Part shown: one piece after another, positions 16,616 to 61,803 of the stretch
How the letters are laid out: every line of letters starts with the position of its first letter
How positions within the stretch are numbered: the first letter of the stretch is position 1
DNA from: Octopus vulgaris
Lineage: Eukaryota
DNA: 64,000 bases
Direction of reading: 5' to 3'
Assembly (NCBI GenBank): GCA_951406725.2
Contig: OX597820.1
Coordinates: 101,680,001-101,744,000, forward strand
Notes under the pieces: model-generated
Told to the model about the DNA's origin: nothing
What the model saw: only the letters and a program-made list of their open reading frames with translations
The model's database searches: none
Translations under genes and position numbers: made by a program

Positions 16616-16707
<92 letters not shown>

Positions 16708-17089: not shown

Positions 17090-17124
17090 GTAAGTAAAAA
17101 TTTGAATCTAAATTTTGATTTGTA

Positions 17125-18379: not shown

Positions 18380-18390
18380 AATAAAATAAA
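18380..18390 (+). terminator. Candidate polyadenylation signals of the Cys-loop gene
   Basis: Overlapping AATAAA hexamers ~115 nt after the stop, followed by T-rich sequence. Confidence 0.5.
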
Positions 18391-23020: not shown

Positions 23021-23445
23021 TCATCATCATCATCATCGTTTAACGTCCGCTTTCCATGCTAGCATGGTTTGGACGGTTCAACTGGGGTCTGGGAAACCAG
23101 AAGGCTGCAACAGGCCCAGTCTGATCTGGCAGTGTTTCTACAGCTGGATGCCCTTCCTAATGCCAACCACTCCGTGAGTGTAGTGGGTGCTTTTTACGTG
23201 CCACCGGCACACTGTTTCCTTATTACCCACAAGGGGCTAAACATAGAGGGAACAAACAAGGACAGACAAACAGATTAAGTCCATCACATCAACCCCAGTG
23301 CATAACTGGTACTTAATTTATTGACCCCGAAAGGATGAAAGGCAAAGTTGACCTAGGCAGAATTTGAACTCAGAACGTAACAACAAACGAAATACGGCTA
23401 CACATTTCGTCCGGCATGCTAACGGTTCTGCCAGCTCGCTGCCTT
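23021..23445 (-). mobile_element. RTE 3'-tail repeat plus SINE family B
   Basis: (CAT)n tail + TTTAACGTCCGCTTTCCATGCTAGC unit, then reverse complement of the 27316-27540 family. Confidence 0.8.
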
Positions 23446-23714
23446 CCTATGTAGTTTGTTATCAAAGGCTTTCTGGTAGTCTAACCACACCAAAGTCACA
23501 TTTCTGCAGCTTTTTATTACATCATTTTATGAATTAGTAGATGTTTGACACTTGCTTCTTTCCCCACCGTTGTTCAGGAGCTATAATACAGCTGGTGGTA
23601 CAGGTTAAAGCACCCGGTGTACATCTTATACATGATGTTTTGGCAAGCTACTGGGTGGTAATTTTTTGCAATGGTTTTATTATCTTTAAGGATGAGAAGG
23701 CTGACAGATATACT

Positions 23715-24108
23715 CTTTCTCTTTACTCTTTTACTTGTTTCAGCCATCCGACTGTGGCCATGCTGGAGCACCGCCTTTAATCGAGCAAATCGACCCCACG
23801 ACTTATTCCTTTATAAGCCCAGTACTTATTCTATCGGTCTCTTTTGCCAAGCTGCTAAGTAACAGGGACATAAACACACCAGCATCGGTTGTCAAGCAAT
23901 GCTAAGGGGACAAACACATACACGCATATATATATATATATATACATATATACGATGGGCTTCTTTCAGTTTCCGTCTACCAAATCCACTCACAAGGCTT
24001 TGGTCGGCCCGAGGCTATAGTAGAAGACAGTTGCCCAAGGTGCCACGCAGTGGGACTGAACCCGGAACCAGGTGGTTGGTAAACAAGCTACTTACCACAC
24101 AGCCACTC
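23715..24108 (-). mobile_element. SINE family A
   Basis: Reverse complement of 1147-1561. Confidence 0.85.
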
Positions 24109-25091
24109 TTGTTTAACATTCCCTTGATACTCATTACATACATTGCATTTAAATCTCAGAGATAAAAGTTGAGATTTTGAACCAATAACCTTTAATAAGA
24201 GCCAGGCCTGGGGAATTTCCTGATTGGTTTGTTTTAGGGGGAGGGGGGGTCCAGTATTAAAGGTTTCTAGTACTTCACCATTGATTTCATAAAGCTTTTG
24301 TTCAACATGCTTGAAGTATCCCTATTCTAATTCTATCCATTCAACTTTTTTCATTGAATTTATCATTACTTTCATACATATGCATACATGTATGTGCACA
24401 CATGTATGCATGTCCATATACATAAGTATGCATATGTATACAAACATAATTATTATTATATATGCTTGTAAAGGCAGCGGGCTGGCAGAATCGTTAGTGC
24501 ACTGGACGAAATGCTTAGCAGTATTTTGCCAATCACTATGTTCTGAGTTCAAATTCTGCCTTGGTCGACTTTGCCTTTCAACCTTTTGGGGTCAATAAAT
24601 TAAGTACCAGTTGAACCCTGGGGTCGATGTAATCAACTAACACCCCCACCCAACAATTTCAGACCTTGTGTCTGTAGTAGTATATGTGCCTGTATGTATC
24701 TGAGTGCATTTGCATTTGTGCTTCTCTAAAAATTGCCAAGCTACAAACAGTGGTGTTGTAATTGACATGGTCACCAAATTTTCAGCTGCCTTTGTGCCTT
24801 CAAAGATGAGAAGAAAAGAATCCCTTACTTGAAACGCAGGAAAATGTTAGTGACGGAAACAGCATTCAATAATATACTGGTTTGATCCATGCTAGCATGG
24901 AAAAACGGACAAAATGCATGAACAAACCATACAGTTTAACCTCACTATAGACAATTTAAAATGGGCTTCAACAACTAAACAAAATAATGATGAAACTTGT
25001 AGTGGAAATTTTCAGTAAAATATAAAGAATACCAAATGCAAGACTTAAGTCACACATGAAATGAAAGAAGAAAAAGACTTTAACAAGAGGA

Positions 25092-25097
25092 TTTATT
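25092..25097 (-). terminator. Candidate polyA signal of UQCRQ
   Basis: AATAAA on minus strand ~33 nt after the stop codon. Confidence 0.5.
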
Positions 25098-25129
25098 CTA
25101 AATAGTAAAACTTCAATTTTTGTATTTCA

Positions 25130-25224
25130 TTATTCATCATTTTCAAAATCCTTAGGGTTCTTCTTCAAGGAATCACTGTGTAGTTTCTCTCCATAGTCAT
25201 AGACCAAGTAACAAAAAATCAATG
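25130..25224 (-). CDS. UQCRQ: Cytochrome b-c1 complex subunit 8 (QCR8), last coding exon
   Basis: ttttcag| (P)LIFCYLVYDYGEKLHSDSLKKNPKDFENDE*, matching the conserved KNP..xEND C-terminus; phase fits the upstream exon. Confidence 0.95.
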
Positions 25225-26282
25225 CTGAAAATAACAAAATGGAAAATTTAAAAATTGTAAAAAATGATAATGAAAATTTTACAACAAGGAAAAAATTCAA
25301 CATGTTAAAACAAAAATATATTTACAAAATACAGTTTTACAAACTATATATCAGTTTCAAATTCTGATATAGGGTCAGCAAGTTCAGGGAATAGAGTAGG
25401 TCCATTACATTGAACACCAGTACCCAACTTATTTTATTGAACCCAAAAGAGTGAAAGGCAAAAATCGACCATGGCAGAATTTGAACTCAGAACATAAAGA
25501 CAGACAAAATGCTTAGCAGCATTTCACAGCATTTCATTTGGTGTGCTCACAATTCTGCCAGCTTGCCACCTTAGTTTTACAAACCATATATCAAAACAAA
25601 TATAACAGCTGAACATTTTTAGGTTGAAATGTATTAGGTTACAGCAGTCAATAAGGTCAATCTATATAGGCGATAGGATTTGATCAGCTGAGGAATTAAA
25701 ATATCAAGTTGCTTTAATCACATCATTGTCTTTACTCCTGTTATGCACTGGATGGCAGCCAAGCTGGAGCACAACCTTGAAGGCCTAACAGAATGAACCC
25801 AGTACTTTTCCTTTCTCTTTTTACAGTTGGTACTAATCCTATCAAGTCATTCTTTTTTTGTTAATGAACCACTAAGTTACAGGGATGTAAACAAGCCAAC
25901 ACTGGTTGTCAAAAGGTGGGGTGAGGGATAAATACATACACATATATGTATATATTTGTGTGGACGCATGTGTGTATGTGTGTCCAGTTTCTGACTACCA
26001 AATCTACTCACAAGGCTATATATGTCTGTCTGTCTCTCTATAAATACACACACACACAGATACACATATATAGTTCCCAACATGATTGTTAAAAACATTT
26101 GGTTAACTTACTGAGCTAACTTATTACATGGAAACAATAAGAATTTCAATACGAATAAGCATTCCTTTTCCCTTGTTTACTTTTCAAGGTCTATCAGTGT
26201 GCTTATCTGTGTATCTACCTATCTGTTTCTGACTATCTGTGTGTGTGTGTTTCAGTTTACTTACCTCCCCACATATCTCACT

Positions 26283-26673
26283 TGTGCCCGTGCAAGTACG
26301 GTGCCAAGAGCACCATCCGAGTGTGATCGTTGCCAGAGCAGTCAACTGGCTTCCATGCCAGTGGCACGTAAAAGGGCACCATTCGAGCGTGATCATTACC
26401 AACGTCGCCTTACTGGCACCTGTGCTGGTGGCATGTGTAAAAAGATTCGAGCGAGGTCATTGCCAGCACCGCCTGACTGGCCCCCGTGCCGGTAGCATGT
26501 AAAAAGCACCCACTACACTCTCGGAGTGGTTGGCGTTAGGAAGGGCATCCAGCTGTAGAAACTCTGCCAAATCAAGATTGGAGCCTGGCGCAGCCATCTG
26601 GTTTGCCAGCCCTCAGTCAAAATCGTCTAACCCATGCTAGCATGGAAAGCGGACGTTAAACGATAATGATGAT
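26283..26673 (+). mobile_element. RTE LINE 3' UTR fragment with (GAT)n tail
   Basis: Similarity to 61290-61800. Confidence 0.8.
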
Positions 26674-26855
26674 GTTTGTGCCTGTCTACCTGTCTTTCTG
26701 TTTAAGTGTATCTATTTGTCTGCCTTTCTGTCTGTATTTGTCTATCGATCTACATGTATCTGTTTAACTATCAATCAATTTATCGCAGTTTTTATATTTT
26801 ATTTTCATAATTGATATAGTTTTAACATCCCCAACTCAAATACACACACACATAC

Positions 26856-26891
<36 letters not shown>

Positions 26892-27055
26892 TGTAAAGTA
26901 TATTTGCCACCTAAATGTGGTTGACCCATAGGGGACAATGCTACTGTTGTTTATAGCTCCAGAAAGACATCTCCTGCTGACTAATGACACACAGTCTGTG
27001 TCCGATCAGTATTTGCAAGGGGAAAATCATCGTTCCCATCTCTATCCTTAAGTGA

Positions 27056-27102
27056 TACACACAGACCCAAGTTTCTGGGTAGTAACTCGTCATCAGCATG
27101 TG
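27056..27102 (-). ncRNA. Type I hammerhead ribozyme (weakened stem II)
   Basis: CACATG-CTGATGA-CGAGTTACTACCCA-GAAA-CTTGG-GTC-TGTGTG on minus strand. Confidence 0.65.
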
Positions 27103-27315
27103 ACAATCACCAGCTAGGGATGGGAAATGATTCCAAACACAAATTACTATATGCTTTTTCCTGTGACAAACTGATCTCGAAAAAAGAGAAACATGCAATA
27201 AGAAATCTCTGAGCAAGATGTAAACAGTAGCAGCATGATATTGTGAAGTACATTAGCCACCAAAAGGTGGCTGACCCACAGGGGATGAGATCAGCGACGG
27301 TTTGTCACTGGAAAA

Positions 27316-27540
27316 TAAGGCGGCGAGCTGGCAGAAACGTTAGCACGCCGGGTGAAATGCTTAGCGGTATTTCGTCTGCGTTACGTTGTGAGTTCAAATT
27401 CCGCCAAGGTCGACTTTGCCTTTCATCCTTTCGGGGTCGATAAATTAAGTACCAGTTACGCGCTGGGGTCGATGTAATCGACTTAATACCTATGTCTGTC
27501 CCCTCTGTGTTTAGCCCCTAGTGGGTAATAAAGAAATAGG
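27316..27540 (+). mobile_element. SINE family B with TSD
   Basis: AAGGCGGCGAGCTGGCAGAAACGTTAGC...GAGTTCAAATTCC...CCTTTCATCCTTTCGGGGTCGATAAA; TSD TTTGTCACTGGAAAA at 27301 and 27541. Confidence 0.9.
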
Positions 27541-27608
27541 TTTGTCACTGGAAAAAGCATATAGTATTTTGCGTTTGGAATCAGTTCCCATCCCTAGCTG
27601 GTAACTGT

Positions 27609-27653
27609 CACACGCTGATGACGGGTTACTACCCAGAAACCCAGGTCCATGTG
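27609..27653 (+). ncRNA. Type I hammerhead ribozyme
   Basis: CACACG-CTGATGA-CGGGT(TACT)ACCCA-GAAA-CCCAG-GTC-CATGTG; predicted cleavage after C27647. Confidence 0.75.
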
Positions 27654-29117
27654 TATCACGTAAGGCTAGAGATGGGAACAATGATTTCCATTTGCAAATA
27701 CTGATCGAACATAGTGTGTTGTTTGCCATGGAGGAGATGTCTTGCAGGGGCTATAAACAACAGTAGCATCATCCCCTATGGGTCAGCCACATTGAGGTGG
27801 CAAATATACTTCACAATGTCGTTCTGCTACTGTTTACATCTCGCTCAGAGATATATATATTGCTATATATTGCAATGGCCCAGTGGCTAGGGCAGCAGAC
27901 TTGCAGTTTTAGGATCGTGGTTTCGATTCCCAGACCAAGTGTTGTGAGTGTTTATTGAGCGAAAACACCTAAAGCTCCACAAGGCTCTGGCAAGGGATAG
28001 TGGTGAACCCTGCAGTACTCTTTCACCACAACTTTCTCTCACTCTTTCTTCCTGTTTCTGTCATATCTGTATTTCAAAAGGCCAGCCTTGTCACACATTG
28101 TGTCACGCTGAATCTCCCCGAGAACTACGTTAAAGGTACATGTGTCTGTGGAGAGCTCAGCCACTTGCACGTTAATTTCACAAGCAGGCTGTTGCATTGA
28201 TTGGATCAACTGGAACACTCATCATCGTAACCGATGGAGTGCTCTCTCTCTCTCTCTAAATATGTGTGTGTGCTTGCCAAGTCAAGCAGAGTTGTTCACC
28301 TTGGACGATAAAATGTGTCACATTTTGAGGTAGAACTAGTTTTTCTCAGCATACAACAGCTGACAAACGAAGTCACAGGTGTTTACCAATCAGCAATTGA
28401 ACAACTTCATGCCCGTGGCTTGCCAGGTAACATGGAGTGTTGTATGTGAACCTTCCATATCCTAAAACAAAGATGCCACATAAAAAGCATTGGTGTGGGT
28501 GCTGGGGTCCACATAAAAAACACAGGTGCTGGCACCAGGTAAAAAGCATTGGTGATGGTGCATAAAAGAACCCAGTACACTTTGTAAAGTGAGTGGCATA
28601 GGGAATGGCATCCAGCTGTAGAAACCATGCAAAAACAGACTATGGAACTTGGTGTGACCTCTGACCTTGCCAGCTCCTGTCAAGTTGTCCAACCCACACC
28701 AGCATGGAAAATGAACATGAAATGTTGATGATTCCTCTAATTCAATGATATTGAGGTCTACTTCTTTTGTTGTCACACACGTGTGTATGCACATGCATGT
28801 GTGTATGCACATGCATGTATGTGTGTGAGAGAGAGAGGGGAGGGAGGGAGAGAGAGAGATTGTATGAAGATGGAGATTCTCTTCTTCAACCTCGTATAAA
28901 TATACTTACAACATATATAAAGTATTATTCTCTAATTTGTTAAACTTATGTGCATGTGTGTGGGTATCCTCCTTTTACCACTTCAACAAAAACTAGAACA
29001 GAAATTTTGTTCTATGCAGAGAAGGTGAGTACAAGTGAAAGTCTGAAGAAGGATGCATCCCAGCACGTTGTAGTATATCACTCTAAGTAGATAAAATTTT
29101 AAGTGATTTTTTTTATT

Positions 29118-29625
29118 ATCATCATCATTGTTTAACGTCTGCTTTCCATGCTAGCATGGGTTGGATGATTTGACTGAGGTCTGGCAAACCAGATGGCTGA
29201 ACCAGGCTCCAATACTGATCTGGCAGAGTTTCTAAAGCTGCATGCCCTTCCTAACACCAACCACTTCGTTTGTGTAGTGGGTGCTTTTACATGCCACTGG
29301 CACGAGGGCCAGTCAGGTGGTACTGGCAACGGCAACGCTCAAATGATGCTTTTTACGTGCCACCTGCACAGGAGCCAGTCCAGCGGCACAGGCAACGACC
29401 TCGCACAAATGTTTTTTTCACATGCCACCAGCACAAGTGCCAGTAAGGCAATGCAGGTAACGATCACACTCGAATGGTGCTTTTTACATGCCACCGGCAT
29501 AGAAGCCAGTTTGTTGCTCTGGCAACAATCACGCTCAGATAGTGCTCTTAGTGCTCCACTAGCATGGATGCCTGTCATCGAATTAGATTTCGATTTCACT
29601 TGCCTCAACAGGTCTTCACAAGCCA
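29118..29625 (-). mobile_element. RTE LINE 3' UTR fragment
   Basis: Reverse complement similarity to 61290-61800. Confidence 0.8.
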
Positions 29626-30264
29626 ATATAAAAAGCAGATTCAGTAACAATTCTTAAGACCTAAGCAGTGAACTTGTTTTCAACAGTTACATTCCTATAA
29701 ATTTTCAATTCCTCAACACACATCTAGATTTCTCTAGCTTTTCAGAAGGTTGCTCTCAGACTGTTAAGATACCAGGAGTTCCAAAGGGGTAAGTAAATAA
29801 CACAAAATATACTATAGATTAAGTTTATAAACTACTATACAAGTTATCTAGACTGCAACATTGATTAATATCTTTTACTTGTTTCAGTCATTAGACTGTG
29901 GCCATGCTGGGGCATAGACTTAAAGTATTTTTAGTTGAATTAATTGATCCAGTATTTTTTTAAAAACCTGGTACTTATTCTTTGATCCTTTTGGCCAAAC
30001 TGCTAAGTTACAGGAACGTAAACACACCAACACTGGCTGTCAAGCGATGGTTGGGGACAAATACAGACACATACACAAATGCATACATATATGTATATAT
30101 AAATGGACTTCTGTCAGTTTTCATCTACCAAATCTACTCATAAGGCTTTGGTTGACCCAAGGCTATAGTAGAATACACTTGCTCAAAGCACCACACAGTA
30201 GGACTGAACCTGGAACCATTTGGTTGGGAAGCAAGCTTCTTACCATACAACCACACCAGAACCT

Positions 30265-31167
30265 ATCATCATCATCATCATCATTTAACGTCCGCTTTCC
30301 ATGCTAGCATGGGTTGGACGGTTCAACTGGAGTCTGGGGAGCCCGAAGGCTGCACCAGGCCAGTCAGATCTGGCAGTGTTTCTACAGCTGGATGCCCTTC
30401 CTAACGCCAACCACTCCGAGAGTGTAGTGGGTGATTTTATGTGCCACCGACACAGGTGCCAGACGAGGCTGGCGAACGGCCACGCTCGGATGGTGTTTTT
30501 TTTTATGTGCCACCGACACAGGTGCCAGACGAGGCTGGCAGACGGCCACGCTCGGATGGTGTTTTTATGTGCCACCGATACAAGTGCCAGATGAGGCTGG
30601 CGAACGGCCACGATCGGATGGTGTTTGTTACGTGCCCGGATGGTGTTTGTTACGTGCCCACAGCACGGAGGCCAGTCGATGCGGTACTGGCTACGGCCAC
30701 GTTCGGATGGTTTTCTTGTGTGCCACCGGCACTGGTACCACAAAGATACAAATTCCATTGATGTTCATCTATTTTGATTTGGTTTGATTTTCACTTGCCT
30801 CAACAGGTCTTCACAAGTGTCACATACTTGCCTCAACAGGTCTTCACAAGTGTCATAAGAAGGAAGGTATGCACAGGTAGACTGACTACGTCCCAGGTAG
30901 GGGCCACGGGTTATGGCCTGACTAGTCTTGCCGGGTCTTTGGATGGTGTTTTTATGTGCCACCAACACAGGTGCCAGATGAGGCTGGCGAACGGCCACGA
31001 TCGGATGGTGTTTGTTACGTGCCCACAGCACGGAGGCCAGTCGATGTGGTACTGGCTACCGCCACGTTCGGATGGTTTTCTTGTGTGCCACCGGCATTGG
31101 TACCACAAAGATACAAATTCCATTGATGTTCATCTATTTTGATTTGTTTTGATTGGATTTGATTATG

Positions 31168-31202
<35 letters not shown>

Positions 31203-33245
31203 CACTTGCCTCAACAGGTCTTCACAAGTGTCATTTGATTTGATTAGATTAGCACTTGCCTCAACAGGTCTTCACAAGTGTCATTTGATTTGATTAGCAC
31301 TTGCCTCAACAGGTCTTCACAAGTGTCATAAGAAGGAAGGTATGCACAGGTGGACTGACTACGTCCCAGGAAGGGGCCACGGGCTATGGCCTGACTAGTC
31401 TTGCCGGGTCTTCGGACAGGTGCCAGATGAGGCTGGCGAACGGCCACGACCGGATGGCGTTTGTTATGTGCCCACAGCACGGAGGCCAGTCGATGCGGTA
31501 CTGGCTACAGCCACGTTCGGATGGTTTTCTTGTGTGCCACCGGCACTGGTACCACTGAGATACAGATTCCATTGATGTTCATCTATTTTGATTTGTTTTG
31601 ATTTTTTTGATTTGTTGATTTGTTGATTTGTTGATTTGTTGATTTGTTGATTTTCACTTGCCTCAACAGGTCTTCACAAGTGTCACAAGAAGGAAGGTAT
31701 GCACAGGTGGACTCCCAGGTAGGGGCCACCACGATCGGATGGTGTTTGTTATGTGCCCACATCACAGAGGCCAGTCGATGCGGTACTGGCTACGGCCACG
31801 TTCGGATGGTTTTCTTGTGTGCCACCGGCACTGGTACCACAAAGATACAAATTCCATTGATGTTCATCTATTTTGATTTGTTTTGATTTTTTTGATTTGT
31901 TGTTCATTTGTTGATTTTCACTTGCCTCAACAGGTCTTCACAAGTGTCATAAGAAGGAAGGTATGCACAGGTGGACTCCCAGGTAGGGGCCACCACGATC
32001 GGATGGTGTTTGTTGTGCCCACAGCACGGAGGCCAGTCGATGCGGTACTGGCTACGGCCACGTTCGGATGGTTTTCTTGTGTGCCACCGGTACTGGTACC
32101 ACAAAGATACAAATTCCATTGATGTTCATCTATTTTGATTTGGTTTGATTTGATTTTCACTTGCCTCAACAGGTCTTCATAAGTGTCACACACTTGCCTC
32201 TGCCTCAACAGGTCTTCACAAAGTGTCACACACTTGCCTCTGCCTCAACAGGTCTTCACAAGTGTCACACACTTGCCTCAACAGGTCTTCACAAGTGTCA
32301 TAAGAGGGAAGGTATGCACAGGTGGATTGACTACGTCGCCGGGTCTTCGGATGGTGTTTTTATGTGCCACCGACACAGGTGCCAGATGAGGCTGGCGAAC
32401 GGCCACGATCGGATGGTGTTTGTTGTGCCCACAGCACGGAGGCCAGTCGATGCGGTACTGGCTACGGCCACGTTCGGGTGGTTTTCTTGTGTGCCACCGG
32501 CACTGGTACCACAAAGAATACAATTCCATTGATGTTCATCTATTTTGATTTGTTTTGATTTGATTTTCACTTGCCTCAACAGGTCTTCATAAGTGTCACA
32601 AGAATGAAGGTATGCACAGGTGGACTGACTACGTCCCAGGTAGGGGCCACGGGTTATGGCTTGACTAGTCTTGCCGGGTCTTCTCACGCACAGCATACTT
32701 CCATAGGTCTCGGTCTCTAGACATTTCCTTAGTGAGACCTAAAGTTCGAAGGTCGTGCTTCACCACCTCGTCCCAGGTTTTCCTGGGTCTACCTCTTCCA
32801 CAGGTTCCCTCAACTGCTAGGGTGTAGCACTTTTGCACACAACTATCTTCAGCCTTTCTCGTCACATGACCATACCAGCGCAGCCGTCTCTCTTGCACAC
32901 CACAACTGACGCTTCTTAGGTTCAACTTTTCTCTCAAGGAACTTACACTCTGACGATTATGAACACTGACATTACACATCCATCGGAGCATACTGGCTTC
33001 ATTTCTTGCGAGCTTACGCATATCCTCAGCAGTCACGGCCCATGTTTCACTACCATGTAGCATGGCTGTACGTACACATGCATCATACAGTCTGCCTTTT
33101 ACTCTGAGCGAGAGGCCTTTTGTCACCAGCAGGGGTAAGAGCTCTCTAAACTTTGCCCAGGCTATTCTTACTCTAGCAGTTACACTTTCAGCACACCCAC
33201 CCCCGCTACTGACTTGGTCTCCTAGGTAGCGGAAGCTATCAACTA
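30265..33245 (-). mobile_element. 5'-truncated RTE-clade LINE with tandemly amplified 3' UTR
   Basis: ORF 32665-33126 (LYDACVRTAMLHGSETW...RWYGHV...GRGRPRKTW) is the RTE RT C-terminus; 30265-32660 is repeated 3' UTR modules ending in (CAT)n. Confidence 0.88.
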
Positions 33246-39443: not shown

Positions 39444-40226
39444 AAAATCTATGACAGATTGAAAAGATCTAAACAGTTTGATTTGGGTGGTAGATCTAAT
39501 ATTTTGCCCGGTTTATCTCCACCATGAGAGCCACTCTGTTTAACACTACGGTGGTGCACTGTCGTATCTCATACCACAGGTGATGTTTGTATATATGTAT
39601 CTTACATCTGGCAGCAGTGGTAGAGCTATCCAACCATGTAATTTCTTGACACACTCCACTGAGTTAATGCACATCTCCACTCCGTTGTTTGCTGAAGGCT
39701 GAGACGTGTACATGTGTTATTTGTATCTGGGATTGTGCATACATCATACTATTCACTGTACTATTTATTGACAGACACAGTTTTGTTCCCTATTCTTTAT
39801 TGTTTATTTTATTCTTATATTCTTGCTTACCAACCACATGGCTCCGGGTTCATTACCACTGCGTGGCACCTTGGGCATCTGTCTTCTGCTATAGCCTCAG
39901 GCTGACCAAAGCCTTTTGAGTGGATTTGTTAGACGGAAACTGAAAGAAGCCCGTTGTATATATATATATATATATATATATGAGTGTGTGTGGGTGTGTC
40001 TGTGTTTGTCCCCCCAACATCGCTTGACAACCGATGCTGGTGTGTTTAAGTCCCCATAACTTAGCGGTTCGGCAAAAGAGACCGATAGAATAAGTACTAG
40101 GCTTACAAAGAATAAGTCCTGTGGTCGATTTGCTCAACTAAAGGCGGTGCTACAGCATGACCGCAGTCAAATAACTGAAACAAGTAAAAGAGTATCTAAC
40201 CCCAATTTTTTTTTTTTTTTTATTAG

Positions 40227-43149
40227 ATGGTTCTGAATGCTATAAAAGTGAGAAATCTTTCCTTTCAGATTCACAATGGACTACAAAAGGCAGATGGAAA
40301 AACTGAGAGAGAATTAGACATAAAAGAATCAGGATCATTTCTTGATGAAGAACCAGATGAAAAAGAATCTGAAGTGGAAGAAGAGAGTATAGCTGAGGAA
40401 AAAACAGATGAAGAGGGAGAAACTGAAGCAGATGGCATGTTGCAGACTTCACCAGATGATCCTTTAGAAGAAACAGATGACGCTAATGATGAAAATGAAC
40501 AACAGACCACAAGGAACAGTTTATAGAACATCATCCTCATCATCATCATTTAACGTCTGCTTTCCATGCTAGCATGGGTTGGACGATTTGACTGAGGTCT
40601 GGTGAACCAGGCTCCAATCTGATCTGGCAGAGTTTCTACAGCTGGATGCCCTTCCTAACGCCAACCACTCCGAGAGTGTAGTGGGTGCTTTTACGTGCCA
40701 TCATCACAAGGGCCAGTCAGGTGGTACTGGCAATGGCAATGCTCAAATGGTGTTTTTTATGTGCCACCTGCACAGGAGCCAGTCCAGCGGCACTGGCAAT
40801 GACCTCGCTCAAAAGTTTTTCCCATGCCACCAGCACAAGTGCTAGTAAGGCGATGCAGGTAATGATCACGCTCAAATGGTGCTTTTTACGTGCCACCAGC
40901 ATCGAAGCCAGTTTGTTGCTCTGGCAATGATCACGCTCGGATGGTGCTCTTAGCGCTCCACTCGCATGGATGCCAGTCATCGAATTTGATTTCAATTTCA
41001 CTTGCCTCAACAGGTTTTCATAAGCAGAGTTTGGTGTCCAACGAAGGAAAGGTACGCATAAGTGGGCTGGTTACACCCCTGGCATAGGCCACGAGGTTAT
41101 GGTCTCACTTGGCTTGCCGAGTCTTCTCAAGCACAGCATATTTCCAAAGGTCCCAGTCACTAGTCATTGCCTCGATGGGGCCCAATGTTCAAAGGTCATG
41201 CTTCACCACCTCATCCCAGGAAACCTCTGGAAAGAAGTTCTCCATGTCTTCCACAGCATATATCAGGATTCACCAGGACCAAGAGTAGCAGCAAAACATG
41301 TGTACACTGCAAAGGACTGCTGGTCTTTGTTTCTCACTCAAGAACTTCTGAATGAATTAGTAGCTTGTACTAATAGATACATGGACAGTAAACAAGGAAA
41401 GCATAAAGATAAGTCAAAAGAGAGACATACTAATGAAAGGGAGAGGAAAGTTGCAATAGGACTGCTTTATCTATTAGGAGTTTTCAGAGCTAACTGAATG
41501 AATATGGAAGATGTTTGGGTGACCAATGGTACAGGAATTCAGATTTTTCTGGCAACGATGTCTTTGCAGCGATTTCGTTTCCTGCTGAGGTCTATGAGGT
41601 TTGATGGCATCCACACCCAGGCTGAAAGGAGGCTAGAAGATAAGTTTGCACCTTTTAGAAAGTTCTTTGGGAAATTTGTTAATAATTGTATCTCCAATTA
41701 TAATCTTCATCATCATCATTTAACATCCATTTTACATGCTGTCATAGGTTGGATGGTTTGACTGAGGACTGGCAAGCCAATAGGCTGCACCAGGCTCCAG
41801 TCTGATCTGGCAAGGCTTCTACAGCTTGATGCCAATGCCAACCACTCCAAGAGTGTAGTGAGTGCTTTTTATGTGTGACCAGCACAGGAGCTAGTCAAGC
41901 TGTTCTGGCTTCAATCATGTTCGGATGGTGCTTTTTACATACCACTGGCACAAGAGCCAGTTAGGAGGCACTAGTTTTGACCACATTCAGAAGGTGATTT
42001 TTATGTGCCACCGGCACAAGAGCCAGTCGGGAGCACTGGCATTGACCATGTTTGGATGGTGCTTTTTACATGCCACCAGCACGGGGAGCCAGTCAGGCAG
42101 CACTGACATTGACCCACACTTGAATGATGCTTATTACATGCCGCTAGCATGTCGGTCAGGCAGTACTGGTATTGGCCCCAACTACAATTTCATTTGACTG
42201 TCTCAGAGTAGATGAAATACTGGCTGCCAGAACTGTCCATTCTGGATCTACATGCCAAGTAAACCAGCCAAATATGGCATAAAAATATTTATTTTAGCAG
42301 ATGCTAAAACTTTCTGTGTCATGCCCTTCTGTAGTAGATAATTCAGGAGCAGCACTGGTAAAACAGTTGGTGTCTCATACAAATGGGTCTGGAAGAAATA
42401 TTACAATGAACAATTGGTTTACAAGTTATGGACTTGCAGTCGATCTCTTGAAGAATTATAGATTAACATTAGTTGGCAATCTGAGAAAGAACAAGATAGG
42501 ACTTCCTCCTCAGTTTGTAGCCACAAGAGGCAGAACTGAAAACACAAGCTTGTTTGGTTTCCAGAAGAATGTTACACTGACCTCATATGTTCCCAAGGAA
42601 GGTAAAAATGTCCCACTGAGCACAATGCAACATGATGCTGCAATTGATGAAAGTACAAAAGAAAACCAGAGATTAATATCTTCAACTACTAAAGGCGGGG
42701 TAGAAACTGTGGATCAGTTGCGTTCCATCTACAATGTTTCCAAAAATACTCGACATTGGCCACTTACAGTTTTCTACACCATACTCAATGTTGCAGGAAT
42801 AAATGCATACAATATATTCATGGCAAACTCTCAAACAGCTATCAGGCGCCAAAAGTTTTGGAGGGAATTGGGATTCAAATTGGTAGAGGACCATATCCAT
42901 CAGCACAAGACAAACCTATATTTGAGGAAAGACTTGATGCAATATTTCTCAGCATCTAAGGGATTACCTCCAAAACATCATCATGAAGATTCCATGCAAA
43001 GATGCTCATTGTTCCTCAGGTCAAAAGATCGTAAGACTAGAAATTGCTGCCAGAAGTGCTATAAGCCCATCTGCTTGGAACATGCCATGCACATTTGCAT
43101 TGACTGCTTTGCTCAGAGTGATGAAGATGATAGTACAAACAATGAGTAA
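40227..43149 (+). pseudogene. piggyBac transposase pseudogene (PGBD-like)
   Basis: Acidic N-terminus (40227-40526); MSLQRFRFLLRSMRFD..DKFAPFR; VDE and YMPSKPAKYGIK (~42210-42290); NITMNNWFTS, TKGGVETVDQ, RHWP, C-terminal Cys-rich domain; stops and inserts at ~40528-41220 and ~41706-42195. Confidence 0.92.
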
Positions 43150-43324
43150 ATAGTAAATATGAAAGGAGTACTCTCCCCACCAAAAAATAGTTTTATTTTG
43201 TTTGACCTTCATTTTCAAAGAGTACTTGTTTCTTTTTGTTTACGGTAACTAGTGAATAGATTTCACTGTAAATATATATATTTGTGAAGGCTGGACGGGC
43301 ACCTCAGTCAGCAGATCTCACTAT

Positions 43325-43371
43325 CCTGGGCTGATGATGGGTTAAGACCCAGAAACATGCATGTCCTCAGG
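43325..43371 (+). ncRNA. Type I hammerhead ribozyme, intact core
   Basis: CCTGGG-CTGATGA-TGGGT(TAAG)ACCCA-GAAA-CATGCAT-GTC-CTCAGG; palindromic helix III; stem I extends to 43277/43418. Confidence 0.9.
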
Positions 43372-45526
43372 TGTGAATCTTGGCTGGTGGGGGTGCTTGC
43401 CTCCCCTTCACAAATATAAGGACACAGAAAATGTGTCAAAGCCAACAGGAAGTGTTCGATGCTTCCTAGGGCTAAACAGCGGTGGTGTAATTCCCATACG
43501 GGACTGTCACGTTAAGTTGACAGTATACAACCACTCTAAATAAATACCTTATATCAAAATGTTTTTTGGTAATATTATCACTTAAGAACACATATAAAAT
43601 ACTAAAAATAGCTAAAAGTATGAGTAGGGTTCTCCATATGCTACCATACTAACCATGAGAAATACAGAACTGCACCACTGGAGGGTTAATGCATTCACAC
43701 TGGGTCACTAGTTATGTTATTTTGGTGTGCGCATTCTACAACACCTTCCCTTTCTTGTGTAATGCCACTGTTTTTTTGCTGGTTACAGGTGCTAAATAAA
43801 ACAAGGGGACAGAGATGTATTGTGAAAGAATTACGCATGTGGTGTAGTGCTTTGAGCCCATACAGTAGTGGTTGTGGTAGTGGTAAAGCAGTAAGATCCC
43901 CAGAAAAATTTTTTGAAATTGGACCTGAATCTGGGGCAGTGGGGGTGGACATCAACTTTGGAGACAATAGTGATTCTTGACTGACCTTTGCACAAGTTTA
44001 ATCATTCAGTTCTGATTTCAATAACAAACCGTCCCTTACTTTTGGAGGAAATTCCTAAAAGACAAGGTGAAATTCCTAGATCCCTATACTGTACTAAACA
44101 TGCAGGTAACATTGTTACCCTTCCTTTTCATTTTAATACAAAACCCTACTTCATAATGGTGATGCATATAACATGATTCATACTCTGTAAGCCATACAGT
44201 TTATTCAAAACAATTTTCTAAATAATTTATTTTGGCTCCCTTGAACTTTTGCACATGCAGGAATATGTAACAGAATTTCTAAACTTTGTTATGAGTCCTT
44301 GGACTTCACAATTCATGTCTGTGTATAAGTTGCTGAATGATGGCACCCAAGCTATTTGTGTACATAGTTGCTTGGTTTCCAGATTGAAACTGATGGATCA
44401 TAATTTTTTCAGCTTTTGTCAATAGAATGTTGAGAGGGAAACAAATGAAAAGGGCAATGGAATTGGTTATAGAAATGCTGTTGAACAACATTTCTGTAAC
44501 CAACCAATAACTACAGCATTATCTTAGCATTGAGATCTAGTTTTATAATGGCATTTCATCTTTTACAAGTTGATCCAAAAATATTTCTATCATGTTTTCA
44601 GTGCCTATTTGTCTTTTGGATAAACCCAAGATGATAAGTCTCCAGTTAATGATAAATTGTCTCCTTACTAACCAATATCATCATCATCATCGTTTAACGT
44701 CCGTTCTCCATGGGTTGGACAGTTTGACCGGGGATCTGGGAAGCCAGAAGGCTGTACCAACCAGGCTCCAGTCTGATCTGGCAGTGTTTCTACAACTGGA
44801 TGCCCTTCCTAACACCAACCACTCCGAGAGTGTAGTGGGTGCTTTTTACGTGCCACCAGCACAGGTGCCAGGCGAGGCTGGCAATGGCCACAATCAGATT
44901 GGTGCCTTTTACGTGCCATCAGCACGGAAGCCAGTCAAGGCGGCACTGGCATCGTTTATATATCAGTATAATAAAACGTTCTTACCATTTGTTGTCGATG
45001 TGCTTGATCTTGAGTAGAGTCAAACAGGAGATCAAAATGGGCCTAATGAACAAATGCCATATAGCAATTTGTGTTGAACAACTGAAAATATTCATTAACA
45101 CTAACAGAAAGAAATATAATATTGTTCCAAGGTTACTTTTCACATTAACGAGTTCACTTCCATGAGAGTATCAAACTTTGTCAACAGTTTTAGTAATCCT
45201 CACAAAACTTTTGAAATTAGATTTGGATTTGCACAAATTTTAACATTCTTTCTATGCTTTACAGATTTCTCATAATTTAGAACAGACTAACACATATTTG
45301 TCAGTGACATTTTCAAGTTTCGTTTAGAAAGGAAAGAAATGCACCCCCCCCACTCCAGTAAATTTGTGAAATGGTTGGTAAATGTAGTGAGAATGGCACA
45401 AAAGAATATAACTACTTTAAGCGCGCACTTGTAGGCTGAAGATTACAAGTGTACTTACCATGGTACTCTTGTTGAGCAGAGTGAATCAGGGTCTGTAAGC
45501 TTCCTTGATATATATATATATATATA

Positions 45527-50272: not shown

Positions 50273-51611
50273 TAAGATGGAAAATAAAGGCCTATATATA
50301 CTTCCACTTTAATTATATTTAAGTTGTCTCCCACTTTTTTTTTAATTGCAATGTCTTTAATCAGATTCGCATTATGACACCATGAATACTTTGAAATTAT
50401 ATTTCCAATCATATAAACTGCTTTGAAAATTATTTCAGCAAGTTTAAAGGGATTTCATTTGTATTGTAAACCATTTACCATTTCTGTGATGCCCCCTTTC
50501 CTTTGATGCTCTAAGCACATGCTCATTTTGTTTAATGGTTTATCCTGTACTGTTGTTGAGTAACGTTACTCCAGGGATATTTTGGAGGAACCCCATTTCA
50601 TGCACTTTCAACCCATTATCCATCCTTCATGTTGTACTCTATGAAGAAAAGTAATATGTTTACTTGAACTCAGCCATATTTTTTATATGAACCATTTGAA
50701 GATATTTTGTGGTGCATTATTTTGCAGTAATCATTTACTTTAATTTCTTCTGCTTTGACCCATTGGAATCATCTTCATCTTTTTGACAGAATAAAAGTTT
50801 GTAATGGGCAATTTTTAAGGAATTATGAGTGCCAAACTACTCACTAAAACAAGACTCCAATAGTCAAAAATTATAGCTCCCCTAATTACAGAACCTGTAT
50901 CAACCTTAGAGAAATTATATCTCAAATTTAAATCAGGATGTATCTTCACTATAAAAAAAAGATCCATCTGTTCATCCAAACATTTTTGCATAGACCAAAC
51001 AAAACTTTCTTTGAGAACCAAACTCACAATTCATTTGCAATAAATATGAGATTCTAATAATAAACAGATTTCACTAAGTGAACATTTAGCTGTATGTGCA
51101 ATAATTAATCACCAAAAGTTCTGGTCTTCCCACTATTATTGTTCTGATAAAACCACAGACCAAATAGAGACAAATAAAGAAATAATTTTATTAAAAAATG
51201 TTAATCATGACTGATGGAATAGATATGTAACAGGTATGTATCTAAAATTTGTAACTAGACCTTCCAAATTGATTAATGACAACATCAAGGGACTGACCAA
51301 TAGCTCTCTTTTGACAAACACCATTTGCAATAATATAAAAAAAATGTCTGGAATGAAGAAGAACAAGAAGACTTCCTAGAAGAGTTAACTACATTTACAT
51401 GTGCAATTTGAGTGACCTATGTCACTTAATAAAAATGTTGTGCCCACTTATGCATTACTTTCAGTACAACCCTTGCATGTATATGGCGATAGGGAGATGT
51501 ATGTATGCATATACACGCACATATGCAATTATACTTTACTTAATGGCCTCTCACATTAATCTACTTTTGTTATATTAGGAAAATAGAATTTAAATAATAA
51601 GCAATAATAAA

Positions 51612-51891
51612 TCTCTGAACGAGATGTAAACAGTAGCCGCTCAACAACGTAAAGTATACTCAGCCATCTCAATATGGCTAACCACTAAGAGTGGATGTTA
51701 CTGTAGCTTTTAGCCCCAGGAGGTCATCGTCTCCAGCTGGCTTTGGGCACACTTTCTGTGCCCTTTGCAAATATCATAAGGGCACAGAAAGTGTGCCTAA
51801 AGCCAGCTGGAAACGATGATCTCCTGGGGCTAAAAGCTACAGTAACATCCACCCTTAGTGGTTAGCCATATTGAGATGGCTAGTATACTTT
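51612..51891. repeat. Fold-back of the structured-RNA element family (~115-bp arms)
   Basis: 51651-51765 is a near-perfect reverse complement of 51778-51891; terminus ATCTCTGAACGAGATGTAAACAGTAGC shared with 27204 and 27853. Confidence 0.85.
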
Positions 51892-54449
51892 AGAATTTAA
51901 ATATAATTACAGAAAATGTATGCTAAATATTTGTAATGACAGTTTTAAAAGTTTTCAATTCAGCCATTCAGCTAGTTTACACATTGATGACATGTGTACA
52001 TGCTGTGGTAACAATCTCTCCACTACTCCTCTATCAGGATACCTTTGCATTAATTCACCCCCGACAACTCAAAAGGAGTGGTTCGTAGTGACAAGTGTAG
52101 TTGATAATATAAAGAAATGGAAAATAATCAGTTTACAAACAAAATATTAAATCTTCAATGAATAAAAGGAACTGGAAATACCATAAAAGATTTTGCTTCA
52201 AAATTTTATTTTCTGTCAGTCAACAGTATCTATGAGTTCAATATTTTAACAAACAGTATTTGAATGAAACTGAAACTGTGCACTCCTAGCAATCTCTGAT
52301 GGTGTAATGATGGAGTCACCAGTTATAATTTCAATTTGCATTGGATAAATGATTGAAGATGAACAATATTAATTGCATGTTGAGATGGCCATTTTATATA
52401 TATGATTTTTATCATAGTTGTTACAATATAGAAAATACAACTACTTCAAGTTGTTTGTGTACACAGTTTCTATGTCATTACAGGAAACAAATTGCCTTTA
52501 GTTCTACAGTCCATTGTGTAGATAGTAAATTCATCTGTGTGTGACTACTAGAGATAGAGTAAGAAGGTCTTAGCAAATAGAGACTATAAGTAGTGTGTCG
52601 TCCCACATATAAAGGTATTACTTCTCCATCAGTACGGGAATAAAGTTAGATGTGCTCTTTGATCAGAAGCAGCAACAAAAGAGAATGAAAGCAGTTTGGC
52701 TTTACTTATTTATATTATTCCTAACCACACTAGGCCAAGGTAAAACAAAGGAATTTTCCCCTTTAATCAGTTTTGACCCTAGTATGCTTCATGAAGGTCT
52801 AAGAGGTCAGCTTATTCTCATTAATCTCTAAGTGCAACAGGTGAGAACAATAGGCTGAGGATTTGTAGGAAAATGTGGATTCAATTTTGAATCTTGGCTT
52901 AGACATTTGGTAGCCATCCACTACAAAGGTAATACAGGTGTGGTTAGCCTTATCCTCACATTTAACAACTTGGATTACTACTCAACTGCAATGGTTGAAG
53001 ATGCCTCTCAATCAAACTATTATTTGCTATGAATCTATATTTATTCTCAAGATGCTTAATGCTGGAGTGAAGGTAACTATGATGACACATTTATTATAAG
53101 TTTACTATATATAGAAATTGAACAGATTGGCATAATGTAAAAGTGCAAAAAGCTGGGAGTGCAGGTACTGGAACAGTGAATTTGTTCCAAAGCATTAAAT
53201 ATATTTGATAAAAGAATATGGTTGCAAATGATTTCAAATTGTTCACAGCTTGTGCTCTTCCACGTTTGTACACACATTATAAATGTTAAATATTTTAAAT
53301 TACATTTGCTTTGAAGTGCATGTCAACAAATGTAACCTCACAAAAGCTAAATCATTGATGCTGGGCTTCAAAAATGTTGAAGACTGATTAATATTACTGA
53401 GTGGCACTAGTGCCCTTGAACTTTCATACCAGAAGTCCAAGGGCACTGATATTCTTGTGGCTCATAAAAAATGAGTTGGTTTTTGAAATGCTTTCTGCTG
53501 TAGCTGTTGTGTTCCTGTTGTCGTTCTGGTGGCCACAGTGAATATGGCTGTGACAGCAGTGGTTGCAGTAATTATGGAACAACTGTTACTTTTGGTGGTG
53601 GTGGTGGTGGTGGTGGTGACAGTGGTTGTTGCTTTTGTTGGTGGTGGTGGTGATGGTGGTAGTGACTGGTGGTGGTGGCAGTTATTGACAGAATGGTATT
53701 GCCGGTCAACATCACAGTGGTCACATCATCTGCTACTGTCTCAGTTACCTTTCTTGAATCATTGGTCATTAAAGAAAGGTAATTCAGGTATTGTTATCAT
53801 TGTTGTTGCTGTTTTTTTTTACTGCTCAGCATGTTGTTATTATTAATGTACTCATAGTTGCTGGACATGCAACTGTCTCTGTTGTTATTGTTGGTATTGT
53901 TGCTCTTCTTATTTCCATGTTTGTTTTTTGTTTTTGTTTTTTCATTGTTATTCTTGCAATTTGGTATGTTGCTGTTGCTGCTGTTTTTGTTATTGTTGTT
54001 TTACTGCTGTCCTTTTCCTCCTCAACAGAACTCATTGTATTGTTGATGGGGCTGGCTGCATTGACAACTGGCAAAAGAGAAGCTTTCATCAGCATATGTA
54101 ATGAAGAGAAAGATCTGGATAGCAGCTGAATCATCTCCAACTTCCACCTTTTGTTACTGGCCACACACATATTGATGTCCTGTTTGTGCTTTTTTGGATT
54201 TTTTCAGATAAAATCTTGAGAAAAAAAAAATTTTTTAAGTTTACCCCTACTCCATGGGATGTGAAAACAAAGGAATTGACCAGCCACTTGCAGCTTTGCT
54301 GATGTTTTGCAAACAAAAGAACACAATAAACCAACAATAACAAATCTTTAAAAGGAGCAAATTTTCAATGAAGTTATTTTTTATTGTTCAATTTTCAAAA
54401 CAAAATGAAACTTGCTTGAAAAGAAAAGTATTAAAATAATAATAATAAA

Positions 54450-60565: not shown

Positions 60566-61803
60566 GCAATAAACTCTGAAAATGCGCAGAGAACAACTTC
60601 TGCCACATTCCAGGAAGGAAAACTAGAATTAGTTGACAGCTTCCGTTACCTAGGTGACCAAGTCAGTAGCGGGGGAGGGTGCGCTGAAAGTGTAGCTGCT
60701 AGAATAAGAATAACCTGGGCAAAGTTCAGAGAGCTGTTACCTCTGCTAGTGACAAAGGGCCTCTCGCTCAGAGTAAAAGGCAGACTGTATGATGCATGTG
60801 TACGAACAGCCATGCTACATGGCAGTGAAACATGGGCTGTGACTGCTGAGAACATGAGTAAGCTCACAAGGAATGAAGCCAGTATGATCCAATGGATGTG
60901 TAATGTCAGTGTTCATACTCGACTGAGTGTAAGTACCTTGGGAGAAATGTTGGACCTAAGAAGCATCAGATGTGGGGTGCAAGAGAGACAACTACACTGG
61001 TATGGTCATGTGGCAAGAATGGACGAGGATAGCTGTGTGAAAAAGTGCCACACCCCAGCAGTTGAGGGAACCTGTGGAAAAGGTAGACCCAGGAAGACCT
61101 GGGATGAAGTGGTGAAGCACAACCTTCGAACTTTAGGCCTCACCAAGGAAATGACTAGTGACCGAGACTTTTGGAAATACACTCTGCGTGAAAAGACCTG
61201 GCAAGCCAAATGAGACCATAAGCTCATGGCCTATGCCAGGGGCGTAACCAGCCCACTTATGCATACCTTTTCCTTAGCAGGGTGCAAAGAGCACCATATG
61301 AGTGTGATCGTTGATAGAGTGGCTAACCGGCTTCTGTGCCAATGGCACATAAAAGGCACCATTCGAGCGTGATCATTACCAGCGTCACCTTACTGGCACT
61401 CGAGTCCCATGCTAGTAGTGTGCTAAGAGCACCATCCGAGCATGATCGTTGCCAGAACAGCTATCTGATTTCTGTGCTGGTGGCATGTAAAAGACACCAT
61501 TTGAGTGTGATCGTTACCAGCATCACCTTACTGGCACCTGTGCCGGTGGCATATGCAAAAGATTTGAGTGAGGTCGTTGCCAGTACCGCCTGACTGGCCC
61601 TGTGCCGGTGGCACGTAAAAGCACCCACTACACTCTCGGAGTGGCTGGCGTTAGGAATGGCATCCAGCTGTAGAAACTCTGCCAGATCAAGATTGAAGCC
61701 TGGTGCAGCCATCTGGTTCACCAGCCCTCAGTCAAATCGTCCAACCCATGCTAGCATGGAAAGTGGACGTTAAACGATGACGATGATGATGATGATGATG
61801 ATG
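60566..61803 (+). mobile_element. 5'-truncated RTE-clade LINE (RT C-terminus + 3' UTR)
   Basis: LELVDSFRYLGD...LYDACVRTAMLHGSETW...WYGHVARM...GRPRKTW; 3' UTR ending in (GAT)n. Confidence 0.9.

What the first reader, a model, noticed from the sequence alone, without database searches (positions are those of the whole stretch)
43277..43545. Intact hammerhead ribozyme element inside a dead piggyBac
Seen in sequence: a complete type I core (CUGAUGA, 5-bp stem II, GAAA, GUC site at 43363-43365) with palindromic helix III ACAUGCAUGU. It caps a ~140-nt rod-like hairpin (TATATTTGTGAAGG pairs with CCTTCACAAATATA) and is followed by a multi-stem domain. Established: HHRs with palindromic helix III typify Penelope-like elements and retrozymes and can act as dimers. 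Inference: a ~270-nt non-autonomous self-cleaving retroelement that could give linear or circular small RNAs.
Basis: partly seen in the sequence, partly recalled or inferred. Interest (0 to 1): 0.7.

Follow-up and report, generated by a model that had tools for sequence, protein, structure and literature searches.

The report
Hammerhead-bearing Penelope-type mini-element insertion
A 300-base repeat with a predicted self-cutting RNA motif sits as a later insertion in the tail end of a dead DNA transposon, and relatives nearby carry the insertion marks of Penelope-like jumping genes, so it is likely a new example of a known kind of protein-less passenger element and not a part of the transposon.

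Summary
The hammerhead is real: core, helices and 142-nt rod are as described. Three corrections. (1) The unit is 43244-43538, a later insertion: other piggyBac copies skip it (11 contigs, 3 of 4 runs), with about 4 target bases lost and no duplication. (2) The '5-bp stem II' is private to this copy; relatives have C·A at its base. (3) One hammerhead cannot release a monomer circle here, and expression is not shown.

New: the window holds five copies of sister families (58-68% identical) at 26890-27863 and 51601-51892. Two keep the core with a compensated helix I. Both loci are head-to-head inverted, with a ~45-nt tail at one outer end only, and one shows a 349-nt period with no reading frame. 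These are Penelope-like (PLE) insertion marks. Best reading: a monomer of a non-coding, retrozyme-sized element moved by a PLE enzyme; rival: the solo end of a coding PLE. Cleavage is untested. The scan noted similar elements in other genomes. Known kind, new member.

The parts
43244..43538 (+). Inserted element, one tail-less monomer (43240-43243 TTAC is shared by target and element; 43537-43538 likewise)
   Evidence: Contigs that skip it and the letters of the empty site (tables 5 and 5c); GC 0.46 against 0.29 and 0.31 in the flanking UTR; no target duplication found
43244..43276 (+). Leader, with a weak hairpin and an (AT) run
   Evidence: Contigs X11 record 10 and X17 record 19 begin to align at 43240; aligns to leaders of sister copies; hairpin not significant, 14 of 200 shuffles as stable
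43277..43418 (+). Rod, closed by 14-bp arms, hammerhead at its tip
   Evidence: -65.1 kcal/mol, z -5.35; same architecture in sister copy A
43318..43376 (+). Type I hammerhead: helix I 6 bp plus URU/U internal loop and extension, core 43331-43337, helix II 43338-43351, GAAA, palindromic helix III 43355-43364, predicted cut after C43365
43419..43538 (+). 3' domain: two hairpins and a branched stem; ends in an A/C-rich stretch at the homologous no-tail end point
   Evidence: z -4.57; highest depth of the stretch; ends compared
40227..43689 (+). Host: decayed piggyBac (transposase pieces to stop at 43149, 3' UTR, right terminal repeat and TTAA); left end not found
26890..27194 (-). Sister copy B: leader, rod, hammerhead (core from 27096, C17 at 27064), 3' domain, no tail; ends in an (AT) run
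27195..27288 (-). Sister piece E: 5'-truncated 3' end with tail, directly upstream of B (partial tandem; 16 nt from tail end to B's leader; period 349 nt)
27287..27863 (+). Sister copy A, head-to-head with E/B: hammerhead core from 27615, C17 at 27647, tail 27818-27863; its leader is split by another repeat (27317-27541) with a 17-nt duplication
51601..51892 (.). Second sister locus: palindrome of two 3' domains cut at the base of the rod; minus arm with tail, plus arm without
   Evidence: (244 nt, 92.6% self-inverted)

Best explanation
This is one copy of an abundant repeat with an intact type I hammerhead motif that inserted into the 3' UTR of a piggyBac copy, and it is likely a protein-less unit of about 340-350 nt copied into DNA by the enzyme of a Penelope-like element (PLE). 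Shown: it is a later insertion, without target duplication, into AT-rich DNA; diverged relatives keep the ribozyme core and its helices; relatives in the window lie head-to-head, in partial tandem, and with a ~45-nt tail at one outer end. Inferred mechanism: the structured 3' domain and tail are the handle for the PLE protein; its endonuclease nicks AT-rich DNA; reverse transcription starts at one of two internal sites (before or after the tail, as shown in vitro for the anole PLE, PMC11167929); this copy started at the no-tail site and ran one full unit, whereas many copies stop at the base of the rod and some are completed by fold-back into palindromes. The hammerhead is predicted to be off in a monomer (core paired in the rod tip, helix III unstable) and to cut only when two copies pair through their palindromes, which would trim tandem transcripts to unit length; this solitary copy would be a dead-end passenger with no role in the piggyBac.
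For: Insertion: 6 contigs in X1, 4 in X8, 1 in X17 and 0 in X11 join 43184-43243 to 43558-43596; 4 of the 5 filler types match window 43537-43558 plus about 4 bases. Family: depth over the 3' domain is 7,000-16,000 times the unique flank in X1 and about 6,700 times in X8; over the hammerhead 130-300 and 135 times; piggyBac ORF 10-23 times (rough, the tool warns depth is no copy number). Core kept: 3 of 3 hammerheads in the window have CUGAUGA, GAAAC and GUC at 58% overall identity; 60 of 66 cells pair, 7 of 22 pairs change on both sides (4 of 6 in helix I), 2 of 500 shuffles reach this, slid controls 15-53%; internal loop URU/U and loop II UUA..A are shared. An X17 contig spans 43311-43408 with one difference, which by depth sum is 43338 (inference). 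PLE marks: 2 of 2 sister loci are head-to-head with the tail at exactly one outer end; tail 44-46 nt; the three tail-less ends (focal, B, D) fall within about 5 nt of one homologous point; in all 4 runs contigs go on past 43538 with a shared sequence, median 48, 52, 12 and 46 letters. These match PLE descriptions (PMC3846280 and 10.1101/2021.04.23.441226 passages). No ORF: period 349 nt at S1 with 16 nt between tail and next leader; focal 295 nt plus tail gives the same size; 5' ends of focal and A lie 33-37 nt before the rod (A measured without its inserted repeat); no frame is stop-free from the hammerhead to the 3' end in focal, A, B or C; the 60-codon frame at 43361 has no homologue. AT content of 5 of 6 flanks is 0.73-0.97 against 0.63 for the window.
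Against: The short period rests on one junction, in a sister family, and a template jump could make it. No tail-to-leader joint is among the 15 of 16 joints shown for the focal family. No PLE reverse transcriptase was found: 0 of 12 further window ORFs scanned gave one (12 of the 29 ORFs of 120 aa or more), and no genome is held. No tandem with two same-strand hammerheads is seen. Covariation rests on 3 sequences, in effect 2 lineages (A and B are 88% identical). Of 8 listed family differences inside the insert, 3 keep a predicted pair, 2 break one (43338, 43380), 3 are unpaired; 165 of 205 difference rows were hidden. The base of helix II departs from G10.1-C11.1, and in a recent test 8 of 9 Xenopus retrozyme dimers did not cleave, so activity is uncertain. 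The depth step at about 43400 mixes truncation with subfamily divergence (an X17 contig continues upstream with a diverged rod arm). Tail back-pairing is 10 bp in A (44 of 1000 shuffles) but only 6 in C (978 of 1000).
Confidence: 0.6

Rival explanations
1. Solo pseudo-LTR of a coding PLE: the 295 nt are the terminal repeat (promoter, hammerhead, 3' handle) of a 3-kb autonomous element, left by 5' truncation or by reverse transcription of the 5' repeat only.
For: All PLE marks fit equally; pLTRs of 193-218 bp with TATA-like runs and solo pLTRs are described; most PLE hammerheads are single and tied to truncated copies; a TATATATA run lies at the rod's 5' arm; one X17 contig runs 1.1 kb on beyond 43533 and another 590 nt before 43403, unread.
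Against: The one tandem junction has 16 nt, not an ORF, after the tail; no frame is conserved through the 3' domain, whereas in described PLEs the ORF starts in the pLTR; the ribozyme has the 6-bp helix I and looped architecture that PMC4209133 calls canonical, not the minimal PLE form.
Confidence: 0.3
2. A SINE-like short element moved by a LINE, the hammerhead only freeing its 5' end from a longer transcript.
For: Very high depth of the 3' 135 nt and 5' truncation; hammerhead-bearing SINE-like repeats exist in schistosomes (review passage).
Against: No tRNA or Rfam head; no poly(A) or repeat tail and no target duplication at this copy; optional tail, head-to-head inversion and partial tandem are PLE traits; copies extend 5' of the cut site.
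Confidence: 0.07
3. The ribozyme is a native part of this piggyBac's 3' UTR (for example to process the transposase message).
For: It lies in sense between the stop codon (43149) and the terminal repeat (43685).
Against: 11 contigs in 3 of 4 runs show piggyBac copies without it; its depth exceeds the transposase's by 13-fold (hammerhead) to 700-fold (3' domain) in X1; relatives occur outside piggyBac in the window.
Confidence: 0.02
4. A DNA-level inverted-repeat element (MITE) whose 14-bp arms are terminal repeats and whose hammerhead-like core is chance.
For: Perfect 14-bp arms beside TA runs.
Against: The arms are internal to the insert; arms differ in sequence between families while pairing holds; plus strand folds better than minus (-115.5 against -100.4 kcal/mol); core 0 of 300 by chance.
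Confidence: 0.01

Closest known systems
Animal non-LTR retrozymes (mussel 350-390 bp, axolotl 330/350 bp, coral 220-240 bp; PMC7229834; 10.64898/2026.07.22.740005)
   Same: Unit size about 340-350 nt, no ORF, canonical-type type I hammerhead with short palindromic helix III, highly paired RNA; dispersed monomers are described; axolotl HHR_Amex2 also has a mismatch at the base of helix II and cleaves better as a dimer.
   Different: No array with two same-strand hammerheads seen here; circles and expression not shown; C·A (here U-A) at the helix II base; copies carry the PLE tail and head-to-head inversions, which the parts of those papers I read do not report for retrozymes.
Terminal repeats (pLTRs) of endonuclease-bearing Penelope-like elements (PMC4209133; PMC3846280; PMC11167929)
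   Same: Hammerhead in a short terminal unit; optional tail at one end; inverted 5'-truncated partner with palindromic junction; partial tandem; microhomology junction without duplication; AT-rich target; A/C-rich end point.
   Different: No RT/GIY-YIG frame found; tail 44-46 nt against 30-40; helix II short and helix I long, unlike the minimal PLE hammerhead; an extra A stands before GAAA.
Rfam Hammerhead_1 and other Rfam hammerhead models
   Same: Core letters and three-helix topology by inspection; 235 Hammerhead_1 hits were reported in the giant squid genome (PMC6962438 passage).
   Different: No match at gathering score or at E up to 10.

Membership tests
Type I hammerhead ribozyme (canonical metazoan form) | Core CUGANGA, GAAA and UH cut triplet | tested here: met
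   3 of 3 copies in the window
Type I hammerhead ribozyme (canonical metazoan form) | Helix I of 6 bp with looped extension; helix II about 4 bp | tested here: met
   4 of 6 helix I pairs change on both sides
Type I hammerhead ribozyme (canonical metazoan form) | Short helix III with palindromic loop | tested here: met
   Perfect 10-nt palindrome here; B self-pairs with G·U, A has one mismatched pair
Type I hammerhead ribozyme (canonical metazoan form) | G10.1-C11.1 directly next to the core | tested here: not met
   U-A here, C·A in relatives, G-C is the next pair; natural active variants with a U·U mismatch there are reported, so this lowers the expected rate, not the class
Type I hammerhead ribozyme (canonical metazoan form) | Match to an Rfam hammerhead model | tested here: not met
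Type I hammerhead ribozyme (canonical metazoan form) | Self-cleavage after C17 | not testable with these tools
   Needs in vitro assay
Non-LTR retrozyme | Non-coding unit of 150-450 bp | tested here: met
   295 nt plus tail; 349-nt period at one sister junction; no conserved frame
Non-LTR retrozyme | Tandem array with at least two hammerheads | tested here: not met
   Not at this locus nor elsewhere in the window; genome not held, so open for the family. I therefore call it retrozyme-like, not a retrozyme
Non-LTR retrozyme | Expressed as unit-length linear and circular RNA | not testable with these tools
   Only contigs, none on record as RNA
Penelope-like element, EN+ | RT plus GIY-YIG reading frame | tested here: inconclusive
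   None beside the three loci or in 12 further ORFs scanned; genome not searchable
Penelope-like element, EN+ | Optional 3' tail at one end of the insertion | tested here: met
   2 of 2 sister loci; shared continuation past 43538 in 4 of 4 runs
Penelope-like element, EN+ | Head-to-head inverted 5'-truncated copy; partial tandem | tested here: met
   Inversion at 2 of 2 sister loci, partial tandem at 1 of 2; neither at the focal copy
Penelope-like element, EN+ | Hammerhead inside the terminal repeat | tested here: met
   173 nt upstream of the no-tail end in the focal copy; same place in A and B

The most novel reading that the evidence does not exclude
A whole superfamily of ORF-less, ~350-nt hammerhead RNAs (several families 58-68% alike, thousands of copies) parasitises Penelope-like enzymes in this genome, and its insertions record the reaction: two fixed start sites either side of a tail, arrest at the base of the ribozyme rod, fold-back palindromes, and longer-than-unit copies that run round through the tail into a second unit, as a circular or multimeric template would give. 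That would be direct genomic evidence for the proposed but unshown route by which animal retrozymes move.
Probability: 0.4. Interest if true: 0.6.

Novelty: new member of a known kind. Interest (0 to 1): 0.4.

Why it matters
Hammerheads in PLE ends and in short animal repeats are common and described, in molluscs too, so the find alone is ordinary, and its place in a piggyBac is an accident of insertion. What lifts it a little: mobilisation of animal retrozymes by PLE enzymes is proposed from co-occurrence and sequence trees, not shown. An ORF-less family with tails, inversions and a longer-than-unit copy offers a countable test in one assembly, and a defined RNA handle to try with a purified PLE protein. 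I found no paper on this family: searches (listings only); a 2026 octopus repeat annotation has 0 occurrences of 'ribozyme'. Subscription papers, repeat databases and the unread supplements of PMC7229834 and of the 2026 preprint may hold it.

Tried and rejected
Whole-genome search: no genome held. Rfam: no hammerhead in three searches. tRNA head: none. BLASTN of 39500-44500 against the window missed the sister copies; nhmmer found them, reversed-sequence control best E 7.6. My first descriptor also missed them, because it demanded a pair at the base of helix II. Collection scans for the exact element: 0 in viral contigs, 0 in metagenomes, 0 in prokaryote genomes. A relaxed core pattern gave 10 metagenome and 2 viral loci; none is homologous beyond the core (best E 0.05), 6 of 12 have a palindromic helix III, and the neighbours read at L003 and L005 look like ordinary eukaryotic housekeeping genes, not RTs (by eye). 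The focal family's continuation motif is not in the window. The 60-codon frame at 43361: 0 of 2 candidates scored (weak evidence). Expression: no RNA holder listed; two guessed-RNA runs show the DNA-like profile and also cover unique flank or piggyBac, which says nothing either way. Folding the 349-nt period as a circle gave no more stable fold than the linear one (-96.9 against -104.2). A two-sequence consensus fold of the 3' domains was uninformative. PMC5785218 not held; PMC10886601 irrelevant. Host identity not settled: nearest named transposase relatives are a prawn (79%) and an octopus (75%) protein; that the interspersed repeats look like octopus SINEs is my recall.

Full report
Observation. 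A simple descriptor hit once in the window, in 2 of 300 shuffles, and in 0 of 300 at this quality. The rod and the 3' domain each fold better than 200 of 200 shuffles. Rfam gives no hammerhead in three searches; I read this as model narrowness (inference). The motif lies between the transposase stop (43149) and the right terminal repeat plus TTAA (43670-43689) of a decayed piggyBac.

Is it part of the piggyBac? No. No genome is held, so I laid 4 of the 24 listed runs on 42700-43900 at 80% likeness. Six contigs in X1, four in X8, one in X17 and none in X11 skip the element. The best-supported joint is 43243 to 43559; four of the five filler types match window 43537-43558 with about four extra bases in front. 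So the insert is 43244-43538, with 4- and 2-base overlaps at the junctions, about four target bases lost and no duplication. Depth in X1 is about 900 on the transposase, 12,000-31,000 on leader, rod and hammerhead, and 436,000-666,000 on the 3' domain, against 41-92 on unique flank; X8 shows the same shape. The tool warns that this is no copy number; I use it only to say that the hammerhead half is in the hundreds and the 3' domain, with related subfamilies, in the thousands. The step near 43400 mixes truncation (loose ends at 43414 that share 9-13 letters and then disagree, X1 and X8) with divergence (an X17 contig with a diverged upstream arm). In 4 of 4 runs contigs continue past 43538 with a shared sequence; 8 X8 contigs end at 43537 in unrelated flanks.

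Family state of the ribozyme. Of 205 difference rows 40 were shown, 8 inside the insert, none in the core. Position 43338 is C in 2626 of 2931 depth units in X1 and in all four runs. One X17 contig covers 43311-43408 with a single difference, which by depth sum (6.06 + 4.16 = 10.2) is 43338; so the core is intact there and the base of helix II is C·A (inference). Of the 8 differences 3 keep a predicted pair, 2 break one and 3 are unpaired: mixed. In the monomer the active fold costs 3.1 kcal/mol over the minimum and helix III has probability 0.00-0.01, while two palindromes pair at -13.3 kcal/mol.

Sister families in the window. nhmmer found four more hits (E 1.4e-9 to 3.7e-5; reversed control best 7.6), which resolve to five pieces at two loci. 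Locus S1 (26890-27863): on the minus strand a short 3' piece with tail (E), 16 nt, then a whole unit without tail (B); head-to-head with them a whole unit with tail (A). Locus S2 (51601-51892): a palindrome of two 3' domains cut at the base of the rod, tail on the left arm only. Identity to the focal copy is 57-68%. A and B keep CUGAUGA, GAAAC, GUC, C·A at the helix II base, a six-base loop II starting UUA and ending A, and a URU/U internal loop, while helix I has a different sequence. On 22 named pairs 60 of 66 cells pair and 7 pairs change on both sides; 2 of 500 shuffles reach that, slid controls give 15-53%. This is three sequences and two lineages, so it supports but does not prove selection on structure. 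The tail is 44-46 nt; the tail-less ends of the focal copy, B and D fall within about 5 nt of one point. The period at S1 is 349 nt; the focal 295 nt plus a tail gives the same size. No frame is open from hammerhead to 3' end in four copies, and the 60-codon frame at 43361 has no homologue. Five of six flanks are more AT-rich than the window. A 10-base strand of the tail is complementary to the 5' arm of the branched stem in A (44 of 1000 shuffles) and, by eye, in the focal family's continuation, but only 6 bases in C.

How it most likely works. PLE insertions are described as 5'-truncated, in partial tandems, with an inverted copy at the 5' end and a 30-40-bp tail at one end (10.1101/2021.04.23.441226, passages; PMC3846280, passages, which also reports junctions by microhomology without duplication and palindromic centres). 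For the anole PLE, reverse transcription starts at two internal sites that bound the tail, in an A/C-rich stem-loop downstream of the hammerhead, at AT-rich targets, and uncut RNA is the main template (PMC11167929, parts 1-2 of 4; three supplement text files searched without hits). All of this fits: the copies here extend about 125 nt 5' of the cut site with the ribozyme whole. I infer that a PLE protein binds the 3' domain, starts at either side of the tail, often stops on entering the rod, and sometimes folds back to give a palindrome. With only 16 nt between tail and next leader, the mobile unit looks ORF-less, the size of animal retrozymes. The E-B pair is longer than one unit and has the tail inside, as a circular or multimeric template would give; a template jump would too. 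The ribozyme would act in tandem transcripts as a dimer (PMC4209133, parts 1-2 of 4; PMC7229834, passages and sections 14, 15, 17; PMC6765202, passages). A U·U mismatch at the helix II base is compatible with cleavage (PMC3088659, passages); C·A or U-A in this setting is untested, and 8 of 9 Xenopus dimers failed to cleave (10.64898/2026.07.22.740005, parts 1-3 of 5; its supplements are closed). This solitary copy has no same-strand partner in the window, so it could at most clip a read-through RNA.

Against, and open. The short period rests on one junction in a sister family; no tail-to-leader joint is among 15 of 16 joints shown for the focal family; no helper RT was found in the window (12 of 29 long ORFs scanned beyond the piggyBac pieces); no two-hammerhead array was seen; nothing on expression could be had. 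A solo end of a coding PLE therefore stays a live rival (0.3).

Comparison and novelty. It works like a PLE terminal unit and has the size and ribozyme type of a non-LTR retrozyme. It fails one defining retrozyme test at this locus (no tandem with two hammerheads) and lacks the PLE reading frame, so I file it as a retrozyme-like, PLE-dependent short element: a new member of a known kind. Mussel retrozymes and 235 hammerhead hits in giant squid (PMC6962438, passages) show that mollusc hammerheads are known. Searches (listings) and PMC13282606 (passages) showed no description of this family. The host is an animal with a multi-gigabase genome, probably an octopus (one search names an octopus relative at 75%, a prawn one at 79%; the rest is recall). 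Earlier notes of this scan describe similar PLE stumps and short units in other genomes (unchecked AI notes; one gave me the lead to PMC3846280); none matches this sequence.

Verdict. Observation confirmed; interpretation partly supported; interest 0.4.

Noticed in passing
   Followed up: yes
window 42298-43149: The piggyBac transposase piece is 79% identical to a prawn protein (P0001) and 75% to an octopus protein (P0126), while the next hits are at 45% or less: a candidate for horizontal transfer between a mollusc and a crustacean.
   Followed up: no
window 43242 / 43598: A joint on opposite strands with depth 460 in X1 and 33 in X8 suggests a piggyBac subfamily with a small inversion in its 3' UTR, or a spurious match of AT-rich DNA.
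   Followed up: no
L007 1-1468: Metagenome record with a 123-nt terminal repeat (a 1345-nt circle), one type I hammerhead at the tip of a long rod, two ORFs without Pfam match: looks like a viroid-like circular RNA, unrelated to the window.
   Followed up: partly
L003 2130-2160; L005 3960-4081: Hammerhead-like cores with palindromic helix III in intergenic DNA between eukaryotic housekeeping-like genes; in L005 at the centre of a 123-nt palindrome.
   Followed up: partly
L008 and L009, 338-nt repeats: A hammerhead with a 12-nt palindromic helix III inside a 338-nt direct repeat, the two copies 2.6 kb apart and flanking ORFs.
   Followed up: no
window 16712-17125: Exon of a Cys-loop ligand-gated anion channel (glycine/GluCl-receptor-like).
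   Followed up: partly
window 9597-9715: Single 5S rRNA-like copy on the minus strand, 58 bits, several broken pairs, beside an (AT) run; probably a pseudogene or SINE head.
   Followed up: no
window 40529-41220, 41700-42178, 29119-32777, 61098-61796: A CAT-repeat-headed interspersed repeat with internal ~66-nt subrepeats, many copies, two of them inside the piggyBac.
   Followed up: no
window 43404-43421 and 51761-51782: A small inverted repeat (CCTT...AAGG; CCCTT...AAGGG) lies where many copies are cut and forms the centre of the S2 palindrome; a candidate fold-back priming site. It is not present in copies A and B.
   Followed up: partly
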